The position numbers and the translations under genes were made by a program. A stretch of 64,000 nucleotides of DNA from Candidatus Rokuibacteriota bacterium. Lineage in GTDB: Bacteria > Methylomirabilota > Methylomirabilia > Rokubacteriales > CSP1-6. Below are positions 16,520 to 57,403 of this stretch, in pieces. The stretch covers positions 11,396 to 75,395 of the forward strand of contig QHSR01000242.1 in assembly GCA_003221635.1 (NCBI GenBank), given 5' to 3'. The notes beneath the pieces were generated by a model. The model was given only the letters and a program-made list of their open reading frames with translations. It did not search any database and was not told the DNA's origin. How positions within the stretch are numbered: the stretch's first letter is position 1; each line of letters starts with the position of its first letter.

Positions 16520-16965
16520 TCGCGGTGGTTGCGCACGCGCCCGGTGACCGGGTCGACGGAGACGCGATAGGTGACGGCGCCCGTGCTGATCCGGAACTCT
16601 CCCCCGCTGGAGGTGCCCTGCGGCTCGAACCGGACGGTCAGCGCGCCCGGCGTGGCGGCTTCGATCGTCAGGCGGGCGGAGAGCGCGCGCGTCCATCGGA
16701 CCTCGTCCTCGCCGGTCATGACCGTCTGGAGCCGGCTCACGGGATTGACGACGACGGTGTACGGTTGCCGCGTGGTGATCGCCTGCTCTCGCGCGTGGCG
16801 AAACGTCGCGGAGAACCCGGCGACCTCGGCTCGGGCTCGCACCGCCTCCGTGCTGCGCCCGATCGCCGGTGCCACGAGTCCCACGGCGACCGCGACGACC
16901 AGCAGAGTGAGGATCAGCTCGAGGAGAGTGAAGCCCCGGGAATCTATTTCTGACTGCTGTCCCAT
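16516..16965 (-). CDS. gspH: Type II secretion minor pseudopilin GspH
   Basis: ATG at 16965 gives MGQQSEIDSRG|FTLLELILTLLVV. 149 aa. Confidence 0.8.
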   Translation of the reverse strand: MGQQSEIDSRGFTLLELILTLLVVAVAVGLVAPAIGRSTEAVRARAEVAGFSATFRHAREQAITTRQPYTVVVNPVSRLQTVMTGEDEVRWTRALSARLTIEAATPGALTVRFEPQGTSSGGEFRISTGAVTYRVSVDPVTGRVRNHRE

Positions 16966-17507
16966 GAGGTGATGTCGGCGTTTTCCCCGTCGCCGCCGGG
17001 AGCCCCGTCGGCGCCCTCGGACCAGAGATCGTACTCCCCGTTCTGGCCCGGACAGCAGCGGTATTTGTATTGGTTGCCCCACGGATCCTTGGGCACGGCT
17101 TTCTTGAGATACGGGCCATTCCAGTTGGGAGCGTTCGGATTCCGCTGGAGCGCGTCGAGGCCCTGGCCCGAGTTCGGGTACGCGCCGATGTCGAGACGGT
17201 ACTGGTCGAGCGCCGCGCCCAGCAGCTCGATCTGCGCCCGCGCCGCCGCCTGCTTGGACTGGCCCACCCGGCCGAAGAGGCGAGGGCCGACGAGACCCAC
17301 GAGCAGCCCGAGCACGATGATGACGACCAGCAGCTCGATCAGCGTGAACCCGCCTTGATTCCCGAGCGCCCGATCAAGCGTCCAACGGGTGCCTCGGATT
17401 CCTGCTCCATGACCATCCGGGAGCCGGTTGTCCCGGGCGGGGAGGCCTGCCGCAGCGTTGTGGGGTAGCGGACGCGTGCCGCGTGGTCCGGTCGACCCCT
17501 GCGGCAC
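16944..17507 (-). CDS. gspG: Type II secretion major pseudopilin GspG (5' end uncertain)
   Basis: The mature part is unmistakable (G|FTLIELLVVIIVLGLL...QAAARAQI...PWGN.Y). The only canonical in-frame start is the GTG at 17507. That start would give a roughly 52-aa leader running through a 35-bp-stem hairpin. Confidence 0.75.
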   Translation of the reverse strand: MPQGSTGPRGTRPLPHNAAAGLPARDNRLPDGHGAGIRGTRWTLDRALGNQGGFTLIELLVVIIVLGLLVGLVGPRLFGRVGQSKQAAARAQIELLGAALDQYRLDIGAYPNSGQGLDALQRNPNAPNWNGPYLKKAVPKDPWGNQYKYRCCPGQNGEYDLWSEGADGAPGGDGENADITSWDSSQK

Positions 17508-17533
17508 GCCTCCCCGCCCGGGACAACCGGCTC
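17421..17533. repeat. Nested hairpin element between gspF and gspG (35-bp arms with 1 mismatch, 43-nt loop)
   Basis: The arms are 17421-17455 and 17499-17533. I reverse-complemented and compared them by hand and found 1 mismatch. The loop holds the core cggacgcgtgccgcgtggtc (17469-17488), which is identical to 36446-36465. Confidence 0.9.
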
Positions 17534-18743
17534 ACAGCGGAATCTCGTTGATCGAAAAGATCGCGAGCATCATGGCGACGACGATGAATGCCACCAGTAC
17601 GCCGAGGCTGAGGATGATCGCGGGCTGGAGGAGCCCCAGCACCCGCTTGAGCTCGTTGTTGACGTCGCCCTCGAACGTCTCGGCGACCTTGAGGAGCATG
17701 TCCTCGAGCCGGCCCGTTTCCTCCCCGACCCGCACCATGTGGATCGCGAGCGACGGGAACTGGCCCTCGGCCTGCATCCCTGCGGCGATCGTGCCGCCCC
17801 GCTTCACTCCGTCGGCGAGCCGATCGACCGCGCGCCCGATCGCCTGATTGGTCATCGTGTCGCCCACCACCGCCAGCGCGCTCATGACCGGCACGCCGCT
17901 CTTGAGCATGGTCCCGAGGGTCCGGGCGAACCGCGCGGTCTCGATCTTCAAGGCAAGCGAGCCGATCAACGGGAGGCCCAGCAGCATCTGGTCCCAGCGG
18001 ATCATCCCCTGGGGACTGCCGGTCCATACGCGCCAGGCGAGGACACCGGCGAGGATCACGATCACGCCCACCCACCAGTAGGCCTGGAAGCCCGCGCTGA
18101 CCCAGAGGAGAATCTGGGTCGGGAGCGGGACCGCCTGGCCGAGGTCGGCGAAGATCGTCGCGAAGCGCGGGATCACGAACGTCATGAGGAAGACGATCGC
18201 GCCGATGCCGACGGCGCTGAGGACGAGAGGGTACGCGAGCGCCGTCTTGACGGCGTCGGCGAACGCGGCACGCGCCTCCAGGAACTCGGCGAGCCGTCGC
18301 AGCGCGATCTCGAGGACGCCGCCCCGCTCACCGGCCCGGATCATGTTGATGTAGAGCCGCGAGAACGGGCGGGGATGATGCTTGCTGAGCGCCTCGCTGA
18401 GTGACGAGCCTCCGCGCACGCTCACGAGCAGGTCGGCGACGATGGCCTTGACGCGCGCGGTCGGCGCCAGCTCCTCGAGGATGGACAGCGCGCGGTCGAG
18501 GGGCAGCCCCGCCTCGAAGAGCGTGGCGAGCTGCTGGGTGAAGGCCAGCAGATCGCGCTGGCCGACGCGCGACGAGCCGCCGAGCGAAAACCAGCCTCTC
18601 CGCTCGGCGTGCGGAGCGACGCGGATCGGGAAATAGGCGTCCCGCTGCAGCCGCTCGACGACGGCGCGGGCGTCGGGCGCCTCCATCACACCATCGATCG
18701 TCTGACCGCGCCGGTCGGCCGCCCGATAGACGAAAACGGGCAT
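17532..18743 (-). CDS. gspF: Type II secretion system inner-membrane platform protein GspF
   Basis: Start at the in-frame ATG at 18743 (MPVFVYRAADRRGQ...). Two GspF repeats and three TM segments. Confidence 0.9.
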   Translation of the reverse strand: MPVFVYRAADRRGQTIDGVMEAPDARAVVERLQRDAYFPIRVAPHAERRGWFSLGGSSRVGQRDLLAFTQQLATLFEAGLPLDRALSILEELAPTARVKAIVADLLVSVRGGSSLSEALSKHHPRPFSRLYINMIRAGERGGVLEIALRRLAEFLEARAAFADAVKTALAYPLVLSAVGIGAIVFLMTFVIPRFATIFADLGQAVPLPTQILLWVSAGFQAYWWVGVIVILAGVLAWRVWTGSPQGMIRWDQMLLGLPLIGSLALKIETARFARTLGTMLKSGVPVMSALAVVGDTMTNQAIGRAVDRLADGVKRGGTIAAGMQAEGQFPSLAIHMVRVGEETGRLEDMLLKVAETFEGDVNNELKRVLGLLQPAIILSLGVLVAFIVVAMMLAIFSINEIPL

Positions 18744-29712: not shown

Positions 29713-30090
29713 GTGCAGGCCTCGCCCGATTCGATCCGCGTGGACAAGTGGCTCTGGGCCGCGCGCGTGTTCAAGACGCGGAGCCTGGCCTCGACCGCGT
29801 GCGATGGCGGCAAGGTGGACATCAACGACGAGGCGGCGAAGCCGGCCAGGCGTGTCCGTGCCGGCGATCTCATCAAGGTGACGCTGCCGCGAGGGCGCCG
29901 TCGCGTCCTGAAGGTTGCCGCCGTCGGCGACCGGCGCGGATCCGCGGAGGCGGCGCGGGTGCTCTACGAGGACTTGACGCCGCCCGAGCCCCCGCGTTCC
30001 CGCCTGGCGCCGCCGCCCGCGCGCGAGCCCGGTACCGGCCGACCCACCAAGCGCGAACGCCGCGATCTCGATCGCCTGCGCGGGTGGTAG
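29713..30090 (+). CDS. hslR: S4-domain RNA-binding protein (heat shock protein 15-like)
   Basis: IRVDKWLWAARVFKTRSLA...GGKVDIN is an S4 domain. Arg/Pro-rich tail. Confidence 0.8.
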   Translation: MQASPDSIRVDKWLWAARVFKTRSLASTACDGGKVDINDEAAKPARRVRAGDLIKVTLPRGRRRVLKVAAVGDRRGSAEAARVLYEDLTPPEPPRSRLAPPPAREPGTGRPTKRERRDLDRLRGW

Positions 30091-30366
30091 TGCGAGCCGA
30101 GGGGCGTCGCGTCCGCGAGGCGAGCCCTTCAGTGGGCCGGAGGTAGTGCGAGCCGAGGGGCGTCGCGTCCGCGAGGCGAGCCCTTCAGTGGGTCGGAGGT
30201 AGTGCGAGCCGAGGGGCGTCGCGTCCGCGAGGCGAGCCTTTCAGTGGGCCGGAGGTAGTGCGAGCCGAGGGGCGTCGCGTCCGCGAGGCGAGCCCTTCAG
30301 TGGGCCGGAGGTAGTGCGAGCCGAGGGGCGTCGCGTCCGCGAGGCGAGCCTTTCACTGGGCCGGAG
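30087..30366. repeat. Tandem repeat array, 5 x 56 bp
   Basis: The unit gtagtgcgagccgaggggcgtcgcgtccgcgaggcgagcccttcagtgggccggag starts at 30087, 30143, 30199, 30255 and 30311, with 1-2 substitutions per unit. The first unit contains the hslR TAG stop. The period is not a multiple of 3. Confidence 0.95.
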
Positions 30367-35370: not shown

Positions 35371-36383
35371 GCCCGGCGCGACGCCTTGCCTTGGTGCTTG
35401 GCGTTCTGTCGACGGCGCTGCTCCTCGTCGCGGTCGCCGCTCTCTTTGTGGGGAGCGCCTCGATCTCACCGCGGGCGGTCCTGAGCGCCATGGCGGGACG
35501 GGCCGCACCGGAGTCGGTCGAGCGAGTCGTGACACTGTCGATCCGCCTGCCGCGGATCGCGGTCGCCGCGCTCGCCGGCGGCGCGCTCGCCGTCGCGGGC
35601 GTCGCGTTCCAGGCGCTCACGCGGAATCCGCTCGCCGAGCCTTCCGTGCTCGGCGTCTCGAGCGGCGCCGCCTTCGGTGTCGTGCTCGGGCAGAGTCTCG
35701 GGCTCGGCTTGACGTTTCTCGAGGCCGCCGGCCTCACCGCCTTCGCGTTCGCCGGGGCGCTCCTCGCCGCCGGAGCGGTGTACCTGATCGCGGCGGTCGG
35801 CCGGGGGCTCTCGATCCAGACCCTGCTGCTGGCAGGCGTCATCGTGGGGATCTTCTTCTCCGCGGCGATCACGGTGGTGATCTCGCTCCTCGACTTCAAC
35901 CGGCTCGGCGGGGTCATTCACTGGCTGCTGGGCAACCTCGCCCCGATCCCACCCGGAGCCCTCGGCCTGTTCGCGCTCCTCGCGGCGGTCGGTTTCTGGC
36001 TCGTCGCGAGCCACGCCCGGGAGCTCAATCTGATGGCGCTCGGCGAGGAGACCGCGCTGGTCCTCGGCGTGGGCGCCGAGCGGCTCAAGCTCACGATCTT
36101 CGTCGGCGCGTCCCTCCTCACCGCGAGTGTGGTGGCCTTCACGGGGCCGATCGGGTTCGTGGGGCTCATCGTGCCGCACGCGCTCCGAATCCTGCTGGGC
36201 TCCGACAACCGGCTGCTCGTGCCGGCCTCGCTCCTGGGCGGCGGCATCTTCCTCCTGGTCGCCGACACGGTCGCCCGAAATGTCGTGGCGCCCGCCGAGA
36301 TGTCGGTCGGCGTCATCACGTCCTTGTGCGGCGCGCCGTTCTTCGTCTACCTCCTGCGCACGCGCTACCGCGCCAACCTCTGA
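35367..36383 (+). CDS. btuC: FecCD-family ABC permease (BtuC-like)
   Basis: About 9-10 TM segments and a FecCD signature region. The N-terminus SPARRLALVLGVLS fits a CTG start at 35367, which overlaps the btuF TGA. The first canonical start is TTG at 35391. Confidence 0.8.
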   Translation: MSPARRLALVLGVLSTALLLVAVAALFVGSASISPRAVLSAMAGRAAPESVERVVTLSIRLPRIAVAALAGGALAVAGVAFQALTRNPLAEPSVLGVSSGAAFGVVLGQSLGLGLTFLEAAGLTAFAFAGALLAAGAVYLIAAVGRGLSIQTLLLAGVIVGIFFSAAITVVISLLDFNRLGGVIHWLLGNLAPIPPGALGLFALLAAVGFWLVASHARELNLMALGEETALVLGVGAERLKLTIFVGASLLTASVVAFTGPIGFVGLIVPHALRILLGSDNRLLVPASLLGGGIFLLVADTVARNVVAPAEMSVGVITSLCGAPFFVYLLRTRYRANL

Positions 36384-36408: not shown

Positions 36409-36503
36409 CGCGGGTGCGGGCCGCCGGCCCTCGCGTCAGGCCATTCGGACGCGTGCCGCGTGGTCACGCGACCCCTTCCCAGGGCCGGCGGCCCGCACTC
36501 GCG
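36409..36503. repeat. Nested hairpin element between btuC and btuD (25-bp arms with 2 mismatches, 45-nt loop)
   Basis: The arms are 36409-36433 and 36479-36503. The loop contains cggacgcgtgccgcgtggtc (36446-36465), identical to 17469-17488, followed by a shared cgacccct. Confidence 0.9.
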
Positions 36504-36522: not shown

Positions 36523-37323
36523 GTGAAGCTGGTAGAGTTCCGGAGCGTGAGCTTCGTCTATCCGGCGTCGGCCGAGCATCGCGCGCCCTTTGCCGTGTCC
36601 GAGCTCTCGTTCGAGATCGCTCCGGGCGAGATTGTGGGCGTGATCGGGCCGAACAGCTCGGGCAAGACGACCCTCATCCGGCTCCTGACGCGCGTGCTCG
36701 AGCCCGCGGCTGGAGAAATTCGTCTCGAAGGCGCACCGATTCGCCGGCTGACGCGCACGGATTTGGCCCGGCGCGTGGGCGTCGTGCCCCAGGCTTCCCT
36801 GGAGCAGGCTCCCTTCAACGTCGGCGAGCTCGTGCTGATGGGTCGCTATCCCCACGGCCCCGGTCGCTACTTCGAGAGCCCGAGCGATCGGACGGCCGCG
36901 CGCGCGGCGATGGAGGCGACCGGCGTCCTCGAGCTGGCCGATTTGCCGCTCGACCATTTGAGCGGCGGGGAGCGCCAGCGCGCCGTCATCGCGCGCGCCC
37001 TCGCCCAGGAGCCGCGCCTGCTCGTCCTGGACGAGCCAACCGCGCACCTCGATCTCCGCTATCAGGTCGAGGTCGCGGCGCTCCTGCGACGCCTCAACCG
37101 CGAGCGCGGCATGGCGATCCTGCTCGTCTCCCACGATCTCAATCTGGCCTCGGAGGTGTGCGATCGGCTGCTCCTGCTGGCGGGCGGCCGGCCGGTGGCA
37201 ACCGGCGCGCCTGAGGTGGTGCTGGGCGAATCGCTCCTCGCCTCGGTCTTCGGCTGCGAGGTGATCGTCGACAAGACCGAGACGACGCGCCGGCCGGTCG
37301 TGCGCCTGACGTGGCGGGCGTGA
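36523..37323 (+). CDS. btuD: ABC transporter ATP-binding protein (BtuD/FecE-like)
   Basis: Start at the in-frame GTG at 36523. Walker A GPNSSGKTT, signature LSGGERQR, Walker B LLVLDEP. Confidence 0.9.
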   Translation: MKLVEFRSVSFVYPASAEHRAPFAVSELSFEIAPGEIVGVIGPNSSGKTTLIRLLTRVLEPAAGEIRLEGAPIRRLTRTDLARRVGVVPQASLEQAPFNVGELVLMGRYPHGPGRYFESPSDRTAARAAMEATGVLELADLPLDHLSGGERQRAVIARALAQEPRLLVLDEPTAHLDLRYQVEVAALLRRLNRERGMAILLVSHDLNLASEVCDRLLLLAGGRPVATGAPEVVLGESLLASVFGCEVIVDKTETTRRPVVRLTWRA

Positions 37324-57244: not shown

Positions 57245-57403
57245 GTAGGAGCCGAACGGCGCCGCGCCGAGAGGCGACGCTTCAATGGGTCGAGGGAGTA
57301 GGAGCCGAACGGTGCCGCGCCGAGAGGCGACGCTTCAGTGGCTCGAGATAGTAGGAGCCGAACGGCGTCACGCCGAGAGGCGACGCTTCAGAGCCTAGGA
57401 GGG
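57245..57403. repeat. Tandem repeat array, 3 x 53 bp, related to the 56-bp array at 30087
   Basis: Units start at 57245, 57298 and 57351 (gtaggagccgaacggcgccgcgccgagaggcgacgcttcaatgggtcgaggga). The last unit supplies the AGGAGG in front of the ACP ATG. Confidence 0.9.

What the first reader, a model, noticed from the sequence alone, without database searches (positions are those of the whole stretch)
17421..17533. Nested hairpin element inside the T2SS operon shares an identical 20-nt core with an element in the B12 operon
**Copy 1 (gspF/gspG junction).** 35-bp arms with 1 mismatch enclose a 43-nt loop.

**Copy 2 (btuC/btuD junction, 36409-36503).** 25-bp arms with 2 mismatches enclose a 45-nt loop.

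**What is shared.** The arm sequences are unrelated. The loops share cggacgcgtgccgcgtggtc exactly (17469-17488 = 36446-36465), followed by cgacccct. That core is itself a mini-hairpin (ACGCG-TGC-CGCGT).

**Context.** Both copies sit between co-transcribed genes just upstream of the downstream start codon. They have the same orientation on the chromosome but opposite orientation relative to transcription.

A conserved core with copy-specific long stems is unusual for REP or MITE elements, whose termini are normally the conserved part. It fits either a small palindromic insertion that generated an inverted duplication of flanking DNA, or an orientation-independent RNA/DNA structure used for intra-operon processing or attenuation.
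Basis: seen in the sequence. Interest (0 to 1): 0.6.

Follow-up and report, generated by a model that had tools for sequence, protein, structure and literature searches.

The report
Decayed copies of a hairpin repeat
The two hairpins are worn-down copies of a ~170-bp palindromic repeat found about 50 times in this uncultured soil Rokubacteria genome and across one whole bacterial family; its stems differ at every site while three blocks at its tip stay invariant, and no known mobilising enzyme goes with it.

Summary
The shared 20-mer is not an element in itself. It is the last invariant block of a ~170-bp quasi-palindromic intergenic repeat, here called "Fam1".

**Architecture.** Arms of 40-50 bp are locus-specific, G-rich on the 5' side and C-rich on the 3' side. 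They close a ~100-nt apical module carrying three invariant blocks: GACCCGTTCCC, CCGGATGGAGCCCAGCCGC and GCGTGCCGCGTGGTC.

**Distribution.**
- About 50 copies in this genome.
- Present in 17/17 congeners.
- Present in 63/251 genomes of the phylum, all in one GTDB family.

**The window copies.** Both are internal-deletion remnants. Orthologous sites in other genomes hold full-length copies.

**Evolution of the arms.**
- Arms abut stop codons.
- Arm changes are mirrored in the partner arm: 19/19 modelled pairs covary.
- G·T mismatches favour the core-bearing strand 2:1, whichever way the neighbouring genes run.
- At orthologous sites the outer arms can be shared while the apical module belongs to a different family.

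**What was not found.** There are no target-site duplications and no Rfam match. Y1/RAYT and TnpB genes are absent from all 17 congeners, and a reverse transcriptase is present in only 3 of 17.

**Reading.** This is a REPIN/MITE-like selfish palindrome of a new variant. In the window it is probably inert apart from adding a very stable intercistronic hairpin.

The parts
17421..17455 (+). Copy 1, 5' (left) arm, 35 nt. On the gspFG mRNA (- strand) it lies just upstream of the gspG coding region.
   Evidence: Local alignment of the left flank against the reverse-complemented right flank gives 35 pairs and 1 mismatch. Fold. The outer part is homologous to the arm at the same junction in congener G010.
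17456..17498 (+). Copy 1, residual apical module. Only the 3' end of the family interior survives (GGGGTAGCG + core + GGTCGACCC). Blocks GACCCGTTCCC and GGATGGAGCCCAGCC are deleted.
   Evidence: Comparison with 41 full-length copies and with the full-length Fam1 copy at the same gspF|gspG junction in G011. The covariance model scores only 33.6 bits here, against more than 80 bits for full-length copies.
17469..17488 (+). Shared 20-mer. It is the third invariant block of the family (GCGTGCCGCGTGGTC), containing the ACGCG-TGC-CGCGT mini-hairpin and GGTC, the first pairs of the closing stem.
   Evidence: The mini-hairpin is helix 5 and is invariant. GGTC pairs with GACC in helix 2.
17499..17533 (+). 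Copy 1, 3' (right) arm, 35 nt. It overlaps the gspF TGA stop (17532-17534, - strand) by 2 nt and contains the only in-frame canonical start (GTG, 17507-17505, - strand) upstream of the gspG prepilin motif.
36409..36431 (+). Copy 2, 5' arm, 23 nt.
   Evidence: 23 pairs, one G·T. Fold.
36432..36480 (+). Copy 2, residual apical module (filler + core + GGTCACGCGACCCCTTCCC). The 5' two-thirds of the interior are deleted.
   Evidence: Orthologous btuC|btuD junctions in two other Rokubacteria genomes (L115, L122) carry full-length Fam1 copies. L122 has the same right-arm start, GGTCACGCGACCCCTTCCC. The covariance model scores 15.8 bits.
36446..36465 (+). Shared 20-mer, second copy.
36481..36503 (+). 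Copy 2, 3' arm, 23 nt. It ends 19 nt before the btuD-like GTG start (36523).
17532..18743 (-). gspF (T2SSF), the gene upstream of copy 1 in the direction of transcription.
   Evidence: Pfam PF00482, E = 7.5e-59.
16944..17411 (-). gspG (T2SSG with N-methyl motif), the gene downstream of copy 1. Its true start is unresolved.
   Evidence: Pfam PF08334 and PF07963. Translation.
35391..36383 (+). btuC-like FecCD permease, upstream of copy 2.
   Evidence: Pfam PF01032, E = 2.9e-85.
36523..37323 (+). btuD-like ABC ATPase, downstream of copy 2.
   Evidence: Pfam PF00005.

Best explanation
**What it is.** Both hairpins are internally deleted remnants of a lineage-specific, non-coding quasi-palindromic interspersed repeat of Rokubacteria, called Fam1 here. 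It is about 168 bp long.

**Structure of a full copy.**
- Two arms of 40-50 bp, whose sequence is specific to each locus.
- A ~100-nt apical module with three invariant blocks.

**Most likely behaviour.**
- The element acts as a REPIN/MITE-like selfish or semi-domesticated DNA palindrome.
- It sits directly after stop codons and is mostly inherited vertically.
- It is occasionally gained, replaced at its apex, inverted, or eroded by deletions.

**How the arms stay paired.** The arms drift at roughly the neutral rate, but each change is copied into the partner arm. The likely causes are intra-palindrome templated correction or inverted-repeat gene conversion, and/or selection for folding of the core-bearing strand. 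This part is inferred.

**Mobility.** The wobble-pair asymmetry points to a single-stranded, strand-specific form, more likely ssDNA than host mRNA. The enzyme that moves the element or binds it is unknown.

**Effect in this window.** The remnants have lost two of the three conserved blocks and are probably inactive as elements. What they still do is put a -80 to -100 kcal/mol hairpin into the gspF-gspG and btuC-btuD intercistronic RNA. That could attenuate read-through, protect the upstream 3' end, or mask the downstream start. This is inference and was not tested.
For: **Shown: it is a family.**
- 52 core hits in the own genome, 0 in the reversed control.
- 53 covariance-model hits, 41 of them full-length.
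- Present in 17/17 congeners.
- Present in 63/251 genomes of the phylum, all in one GTDB family, in 20 of 68 genera.
- Also found on contigs up to ~1.27 Mb of the near-contiguous MFD MAGs, so it is not an assembly artefact.

**Shown: architecture.** Searches give the blocks and arms.
- Median 44 arm pairs in the own genome, about 95% complementary.
- Arm information content is only 0.3-0.9 bit beyond the inner ~15 bp.

**Shown: arm covariation.**
- 19/19 modelled arm pairs change on both sides.
- 95.5% of cells are paired, against 40-46% in slid controls.
- 557 double-change cells, against 152 in shuffles.
- Orthologous arms: 137 of 228 changed positions are mirrored.

**Shown: the window copies are deletion derivatives.** Full-length Fam1 sits at the gspF|gspG junction in G011 and at the btuC|btuD junction in L115 and L122. 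Other remnants of the same kind occur elsewhere.

**Shown: position.**
- The palindrome end lies a median 11 nt from the adjacent stop codon; 22/50 are within -2 to +7 nt.
- Convergent contexts outnumber divergent ones, 36 to 9.

**Shown: strand asymmetry.** G·T on the core strand 122, on the other strand 61 (p = 8e-6). The bias is replicated in the own genome and in other genomes. It is independent of mRNA direction, 26 against 29.

**Shown: gains within the lineage.** The C191 site is empty in G010 and G007; the C294 site is empty in the five more distant congeners examined.

**Shown: apex exchange.**
- The same outer 20-bp arms hold Fam1 in G000 and a Fam2-like unit in G010.
- The gspF|gspG junction holds Fam2 in 10 congeners and Fam1 in 2, with partly homologous arms.
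- The positional orthologue is the best match for the arms in 7/17 cases but for the interior in only 5/17.
Against: - No mobilising gene was found. Y1_Tnp is in 0/17 congeners, TnpB in 0/17, RVT_1 in 3/17. The one IS110-family element examined has no relation to the repeats.
- There is no target-site duplication or target motif.
- There are no near-identical paralogues in this genome, so current mobility is unproven.
- Invariance of three blocks at ~40 loci per genome across ~20 genera argues for a host-level or partner-protein function rather than pure selfishness.
- Gene calls for the context statistics come from my own crude codon-usage caller.
Confidence: 0.68

Rival explanations
1. It is a structured RNA family, either a small RNA gene or a cis-acting processing, attenuation or stability element. 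The long stem and the conserved apical loops are selected at the RNA level.
For: - Very strong stem covariation.
- Wobble pairs are tolerated preferentially on one strand.
- G-U variants occur in helices 2 and 5 on that strand.
- The element sits in transcribed 3' or intercistronic regions.
- Stable folds.
Against: - Orientation relative to the flanking genes is mixed: antisense 53, sense 34.
- The wobble bias is the same in sense and antisense copies, so host read-through RNA cannot be the selected molecule.
- There is no conserved flanking promoter or terminator.
- The interior shows almost no Watson-Crick covariation; only one covarying column pair was found.
- The three blocks are invariant rather than covarying.
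- No Rfam match.
Confidence: 0.12
2. It is a domesticated DNA site. The invariant apical blocks are binding sites for a host protein, such as a nucleoid-associated protein, gyrase, or a replication or recombination factor, as in E. coli BIMEs. The palindrome promotes cruciform or hairpin presentation.
For: - Three sequence blocks are invariant across ~20 genera at dozens of loci, while everything between them varies.
- Function independent of orientation would fit the mixed orientation.
- Most copies are orthologous between species.
Against: - Binding to double-stranded DNA would not produce the strand-specific G·T bias.
- Many copies decay or are lost without obvious replacement.
- Several unrelated apical families share the same architecture and the same sites.
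- No candidate protein has been identified.
Confidence: 0.1
3. A small conserved unit inserts, and the long arms arise locally as an inverted duplication or outward extension of flanking DNA, through fold-back priming or template switching. That would make the arms copy-specific from the start.
For: - The outermost arm segments have ordinary, not G-rich, composition. They are unique even within a young subfamily that shares its inner 30 bp.
- Arms run right up to, and 1-2 nt into, stop codons.
- At C191 the closest relative's element-free site already contains the outer right-arm sequence.
Against: - At C294, five outgroup genomes have empty sites with no arm sequence at all.
- At least one one-arm allele is a deletion remnant, because it retains element-specific sequence.
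- At L116/C189 the whole palindrome, including its 48-bp arms, is the indel.
- The G010 state at C191 can equally be a deletion between two CCTGACCC direct repeats.
Confidence: 0.1

Closest known systems
REPINs / REP sequences with RAYT (TnpA_REP), e.g. Pseudomonas fluorescens and E. coli BIMEs (PMC3116915, PMC8266576)
   Same: - Extragenic, non-coding hairpin-forming inverted doublets.
- Tens of copies per genome.
- Located after genes and inside transport operons.
- Long vertical persistence in a lineage.
- Correlated changes in the two arms.
- Strand-specific single-stranded biology is suspected.
   Different: - Here the arms are not conserved between copies; the conserved part is the apex.
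- The element is about 170 bp, not two ~25-nt REPs.
- No Y1/RAYT gene is present in any of the 17 congeners.
ERIC/IRU and YPAL of enterobacteria and yersiniae, and Correia/NEMIS elements of Neisseria (MITE-like long imperfect palindromes co-transcribed with neighbouring genes).
   Same: - Intergenic palindromes of 100-170 bp that fold into long RNA hairpins.
- Both orientations occur.
- They can alter the stability of flanking mRNA.
- Internally deleted variants exist.
   Different: - Those families have conserved terminal inverted repeats and TA target duplications.
- Here there is no target-site duplication, the arms are hypervariable, and the apical module is invariant.
Integron attC sites
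   Same: - Structure is conserved rather than sequence.
- The folded single strand is strand-specific.
- Located immediately after ORFs.
   Different: - attC sites keep conserved outer R''/R' boxes and occur in cassette arrays with fixed orientation.
- Here the outer ends are not conserved, the copies are solitary, and both orientations occur.
Insertion sequences that target palindromes (IS1397/ISKpn1 in REP loops; IS110/IS1111 family in REP/attC). This comparison rests on my own knowledge.
   Same: Layered structures suggest that new units land in, or replace, the apex of resident hairpins.
   Different: - The units here are ~100 nt and non-coding.
- The one multi-copy IS110-family element examined in congener G011 shares no sequence with them and is not inserted in them.

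Membership tests
REP/REPIN-RAYT system | A RAYT (Y1 HUH transposase, Pfam Y1_Tnp) gene in genomes that carry the repeats | tested here: not met
   PF01797 gave 0 matches in all 17 genomes of the genus. It did match in other families of the order and in 6 control genomes.
REP/REPIN-RAYT system | The REP arm sequence is conserved among copies, as the recognition sequence for the RAYT | tested here: not met
   Arm information content is 0.3-0.9 bit beyond the inner ~15 bp. All 19 modelled arm pairs vary on both sides.
REP/REPIN-RAYT system | Extragenic, multi-copy, hairpin-forming inverted doublet | tested here: met
Classical MITE | Terminal inverted repeats conserved between copies and shared with an autonomous IS | tested here: not met
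   The outer ends are unique to each copy. No copy contains or flanks a transposase ORF.
Classical MITE | Target-site duplication flanking the element | tested here: not met
   The distribution of abutting direct-repeat lengths equals the shuffled expectation in 131 copies.
IS200/IS605-derived PATE / TnpB omega-RNA-bearing ends | TnpA (Y1) and/or TnpB present in the genome | tested here: not met
   PF01797 in 0/17. PF07282 in 0/17.
Retro-mobilised SINE-like or retron-like element | A reverse transcriptase conserved in carrier genomes | tested here: not met
   RVT_1 is present in only 3 of 17 congeners.
Intrinsic (Rho-independent) terminator | A short GC-rich stem followed by a T/U run | tested here: not met
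   The stems are 40-50 bp with a ~100-nt apex. The 20 nt after the right arm show no T enrichment; the commonest base at each position is G or C except one T at 29%.
Integron attC | Conserved R''/R' core sites at the outer ends of the palindrome, cassette arrays | tested here: not met
   There is no conserved outer-end or flank motif. Copies are solitary. IntI was not searched for.
Invertible promoter (inverton) | The segment between the inverted repeats is found in both orientations at the same locus | tested here: inconclusive
   By eye, one inversion (L137 against C75) among the roughly 35 orthologous loci with an element in both genomes that I inspected. No within-population read data were available.
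Any Rfam RNA family | A match to a curated covariance model | tested here: not met
   cmscan in E-value mode on 10 loci holding full-length copies gave only two chance-level hits elsewhere in the loci.

The most novel reading that the evidence does not exclude
Rokubacteria harbour a previously undescribed class of 'cassette-in-hairpin' mobile DNA. Short non-coding apical modules of several unrelated families (Fam1, Fam2 and others) move into, or replace, the apex of resident long hairpins. They do this through a strand-specific single-stranded intermediate and leave no target duplication. The enzyme responsible is not a Y1 HUH transposase, TnpB or a reverse transcriptase. The locus-specific stems are then kept perfectly paired by templated self-correction.
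Probability: 0.2. Interest if true: 0.8.

Novelty: new variant of a known kind. Interest (0 to 1): 0.5.

Why it matters
**For annotation.**
- Dozens of intergenic sites per genome in a widespread but uncultured soil phylum are occupied by these palindromes.
- They generate spurious ORF extensions.
- They may interfere with start-codon calling, as at gspG.

**For biology.**
- The family reverses the usual logic of bacterial repeats: the apex is invariant and the ends are hypervariable but self-complementary.
- It persists across ~20 genera without any recognisable partner transposase.
- If a partner exists, it is a new kind of hairpin-recognising enzyme.
- If none exists, the family is a natural system for studying how long quasi-palindromes are maintained and corrected in bacterial chromosomes.

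**For the two operons in the window.** The remnants are candidate attenuators, or a mask over the start of gspG.

Tried and rejected
- **Rfam.** Scan of 10 loci with full-length copies: nothing.
- **Transposase inside or beside copies.** ORFs overlapping elements are ordinary genes extended spuriously into the repeat. Genes lying between closely spaced copies are metabolic or transport genes.
- **Candidate mobilisers.** RAYT/Y1, TnpB and reverse transcriptase are absent or not correlated with the repeats.
- **IS110 family.** It is present in 12/17 congeners. The one multi-copy 1.6-kb element I examined in G011 shares no motif with the repeats and is not inserted in them. Other IS110 subgroups were not examined.
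- **Small ORF starting at the ATG in GGATGGAGCC.** Rejected, because the spacing between blocks varies by 1-3 nt.
- **RNAalifold on plain MAFFT alignments.** It failed because the G-rich arms misalign. I replaced it with anchored analyses and a covariance-model alignment.
- **Interior helices.** P3 is only 71% paired. The two mini-hairpins are invariant, so they are neither supported nor refuted.
- **Target-site duplication or target motif.** None.
- **Host-mRNA hairpin selection.** Rejected by the wobble test against gene direction.
- **Literature.** No paper links Rokubacteria to such repeats.
Full report
**1. Checking the observation**

The 20-mer CGGACGCGTGCCGCGTGGTC occurs exactly twice in the window, at 17469-17488 and 36446-36465, both on the + strand. 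None of 100 shuffles reached two matches.

- Copy 1 has 35-bp arms (17421-17455 and 17499-17533), one mismatch and a 43-nt loop.
- Copy 2 has 23 paired positions (36409-36431 and 36481-36503), one G·T and a 49-nt loop.
- Both fold far better than shuffled sequence on either strand: about -101 and -80 kcal/mol, z-scores -4.7 to -9.7.

The neighbouring genes are T2SSF and T2SSG on the - strand, and a FecCD/BtuC-like permease and an ABC ATPase on the + strand.

**2. The core belongs to a much larger repeat**

The window is contig C71:11396-75395 of a 5.17-Mb, 68% GC MAG. The core has 52 matches with at most 2 mismatches in that genome and none in the reversed control.

Printing the flanks shows that about 45 of these lie in a far longer conserved element. 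Read on the core-bearing ('top') strand, it consists of:

- a G-rich left arm;
- GGGGTCGA-nn-GGACC;
- CGTTCCC;
- a variable stretch of ~20 nt;
- CGACGGG;
- a variable stretch;
- GCGCCCGGATGGAGCCCAGCCGC;
- a variable stretch of ~8 nt;
- AGCGnnC-GCGTGCCGCGTGGTC;
- nnn-TCGACCCC;
- a C-rich right arm.

Measurements on the family:

- In 46 own-genome copies the arms have a median of 44 paired positions and are about 95% complementary: 109 mismatches in 1,991 pairs.
- Across 131 copies from the own and other genomes the whole palindrome has a median length of 168 bp.
- Beyond the inner ~15 bp the arms carry only compositional information, 0.3-0.9 bit per position.
- A covariance model built on 35 copies finds 53 hits in the genome, 41 of them full-length at more than 80 bits.
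- In the window the model finds only the two reported loci, at 33.6 and 15.8 bits.
- No Rfam family matches.

**3. Where the family occurs**

- An exact two-block pattern hits all 17 genomes of the genus (6-40 copies each), 3 of 8 sampled sister genera, and no other family of the order.
- With the covariance model, 63 of 251 genomes of the phylum are positive. All 63 lie in one GTDB family and span 20 of the phylum sample's 68 genera.
- The public records are Candidatus Rokubacteria / Rokuibacteriota (Methylomirabilota) MAGs. They include the near-contiguous MFD MAGs with contigs up to ~1.27 Mb, so the element is not an assembly artefact.
- Other first-stage notes describe the same architecture in other genomes: 43-44-nt G-rich and C-rich arms around an ~80-nt core. 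I treat these only as consistent leads.
- I found no paper describing such repeats in Rokubacteria.

**4. The window copies are deletion remnants**

Copy 1 retains GGGGTAGCG + core + GGTCGACCCC and a family-like right arm, but lacks about 85 nt that include two of the three invariant blocks.

At the orthologous gspF|gspG junction in 15 congeners:

- one genome (G011) has a full-length Fam1 copy in the same orientation;
- ten carry a different hairpin family, Fam2, whose apex reads ACGACGGCTCTCA...GTCCGCGCGCTGACTACACG;
- three have no element.

At the btuC|btuD junction, two other genomes (L115, L122) carry full-length Fam1. One of them has the same right-arm start as the window copy, GGTCACGCGACCCCTTCCC.

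Comparable remnants occur elsewhere:

- 5'-half only;
- right half only;
- one arm only;
- apex lost completely, leaving GGGGTC-CTCTCGACCCC.

**5. How the arms evolve**

On a model-guided alignment of 107 copies from other genomes:

- all 19 modelled arm pairs change on both sides;
- 95.5% of cells are paired, against 40-46% when the partner column is slid;
- there are 557 double-change cells, against 152 ± 11 in shuffles.

Between positional orthologues, 137 of 228 changed arm positions are mirrored with pairing kept in both species. Examples are L035/C327, L148/C18 and G013/G006.

The apical blocks are invariant. The two mini-hairpins, GGaTGG-AGC-CCAgCC and ACGCG-TGC-CGCGT, never vary, so covariation says nothing about them. 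A mutual-information scan of 152 copies found only one covarying interior column pair.

Spacing between the blocks varies by 1-3 nt, which excludes a conserved ORF.

**6. Position and orientation**

- Copies are intergenic.
- The palindrome's outer end lies a median 11 nt from the adjacent stop codon, with 22 of 50 within -2 to +7 nt. It lies a median 49 nt from the next start.
- Convergent contexts outnumber divergent ones: 10 to 3 in the own genome and 26 to 6 in other genomes.
- In tandem contexts both orientations occur: antisense 20 and 33, sense 12 and 22.
- There is no target-site duplication and no conserved flanking motif.
- These context statistics rest on my own codon-usage gene caller.

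**7. A strand-specific signature**

In 143 copies (5,764 arm pairs, 263 mismatches):

| Comparison | Core-bearing (or mRNA) strand | Other strand | p |
|---|---|---|---|
| G·T mismatches, all copies | 122 | 61 | 8e-6 |
| Own genome only | 44 | 22 | 0.009 |
| Other genomes only | 78 | 39 | 0.0004 |
| By mRNA strand in tandem contexts (own genome) | 26 | 29 | 0.79 |

The bias does not follow the mRNA strand. So either the core strand is the one that folds, or it is the one preferentially single-stranded and deaminated. In both cases this is a property of the element, not of host read-through transcription. That argues against a simple 'mRNA hairpin' function and towards an ssDNA form or a transcript of the element itself.

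**8. Turnover**

About 65 elements from other genomes map to syntenic sites in this genome. By eye, judged from flank spacing:

- roughly 40 sites are filled in this genome too;
- about 18 are empty, with neither arm present; at L116/C189, for example, the entire palindrome with its 48-bp arms is the indel;
- the rest are partial or hold another repeat.

A subfamily of 6-7 own-genome copies shares the inner 30 bp of its arms but has unique, complementary outer segments of 10-14 bp. For its members:

- C191 is empty in G010 and G007;
- C294 is empty in the five more distant congeners examined (G001, G011, G013, G014, G015), whose intergenic spacers contain no arm sequence;
- G003 keeps a 9-nt remnant at C294;
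- G010 has a Fam2-like unit inside the same outer 20-bp arms at C294;
- G016 has yet another family at C294.

The positional orthologue is the best match for the arms in 7 of 17 cases, where chance is 1 in 42. For the interior it is the best match in only 5 of 17, and a paralogue beats the orthologue in 13 of 17.

Together with the gspF|gspG junction, this indicates that the outer arms are inherited with the locus, while the apex and inner arms can be exchanged or re-colonised.

Orientation is stable. By eye, only one of the roughly 35 orthologous loci with an element in both genomes is inverted, L137 against C75.

At least one one-arm allele is a deletion product. At C30:12880, G003 retains GGGGTCGAAGGGACCC, which is element-specific sequence. 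This weakens the inverted-duplication-of-flank idea. The C191/G010 comparison can still be read either way.

**9. Search for a mobiliser**

| Candidate | Result |
|---|---|
| ORF inside or recurrently beside copies | none transposase-like |
| Y1_Tnp (RAYT/IS200) | 0/17 congeners, controls positive |
| TnpB | 0/17 |
| RVT_1 | 3/17 |
| IS110 family | 12/17 |

The 1.6-kb IS110-family element with many identical copies in G011 shares no motif with the repeats and is not inserted in them.

**10. Interpretation**

The best-supported reading is a REPIN/MITE-like palindromic repeat of a new variant. Its apex is invariant. Its arms are hypervariable but mirror-corrected. It is vertically persistent and occasionally mobile or exchangeable. 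It acts through a strand-specific single-stranded form, and its partner enzyme is unknown.

The two window copies are decayed. Their remaining property is a very stable hairpin between cistrons, whose regulatory effect is plausible but untested.

Three rivals are kept at low probability, with explicit refutation tests:

- a functional RNA family;
- a domesticated protein-binding DNA site;
- arms created by inverted duplication of flanks.

**11. Limits**

- Gene contexts come from a crude caller.
- The comparisons are between species at 76-97% nucleotide identity, mostly 80-90%, not between strains, so insertion against deletion cannot always be polarised.
- Covariance-model alignments lean towards the modelled structure. 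The anchored, model-free analyses agree with them.

Noticed in passing
window 17310-17534 (- strand): The gspF TGA stop (17534-17532) is in the same frame as gspG. The frame stays open through the whole hairpin into the prepilin motif (..LGNQGG|FTLIEL). The only canonical in-frame start is GTG at 17507-17505, inside the hairpin arm; the two ATGs at 17416 and 17410 are out of frame. Congener G015 has only 23 nt between the gspF stop and the GFTLIE motif, also in frame and without ATG, GTG or TTG. This raises the possibility of a non-canonical start or TGA read-through followed by prepilin-peptidase cleavage.
   Followed up: partly
G000 contigs C296:2627-2787, C313:23280-23438, C132:20809-20958, C18:18135-18269, C313:28828-28950, C158:8482-8598; gspF|gspG junction of 10 congeners (L182-L195): A second hairpin family (Fam2) has the same architecture: copy-specific G-rich and C-rich arms around a ~60-75-nt apex ending ..GCGCGCTGACTACA. 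On the equivalent strand it shares with Fam1 the terminal motifs GACCCGT... and ...GCCG(N)CGTGGTC.
   Followed up: partly
G000 C247:12457-12570, C178:1093-1168; C38:4758-4846, C80:5673-5751; G016:C104:27314-28088: Further long-hairpin families with other conserved loops: a 10-nt loop AGAACTACGA, a 23-nt loop GCGMGAGTGGGGTT.., and a ~65-nt apex in G016 at the C294 site.
   Followed up: no
G000 C313:25112-25399 and C132:7522-7726 (compare window 30087-30366 and 57245-57403, flagged by other readers): 53-56-bp tandem repeats (GAGTCGAGAGGGGGGCGCGACCGCGGCAGAGGAGGCGACG..) occupy intergenic sites that hold Fam1 hairpins in other genomes. The same sites are therefore hot spots for different repeat classes.
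   Followed up: no
G000 C258:10182-10618, C21:1-552, C324:1686-1999, C237:1-194, C3:30758-30946: Very long (66-198 bp) perfect or near-perfect inverted repeats made of coding-like sequence. C21 and C237 lie at contig ends. They look like fold-back assembly chimeras rather than biology.
   Followed up: no
G000 C71:79004-79219 (about 3.6 kb beyond the window's end), C3:52931-53372, C101:3679-4059, C290:17443-17599: Head-to-head pairs of Fam1 copies, 90-350 nt apart. These are conserved as pairs at orthologous loci in other genomes. At C290 the two copies are fused into one larger palindrome.
   Followed up: partly
left flanks of several copies, e.g. G000 C30:~12700, C3:~53100, C101:~3830, C169:~18300: A short motif, ACGCCCTGAGCC(C), recurs 40-120 nt upstream of Fam1 copies. 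Its meaning is unknown.
   Followed up: no
G011 (L222-L227): A 1,599-bp IS110-family element with at least 9 near-identical copies in the near-contiguous (30-contig) congener G011. Several are inserted in other repeated DNA.
   Followed up: partly
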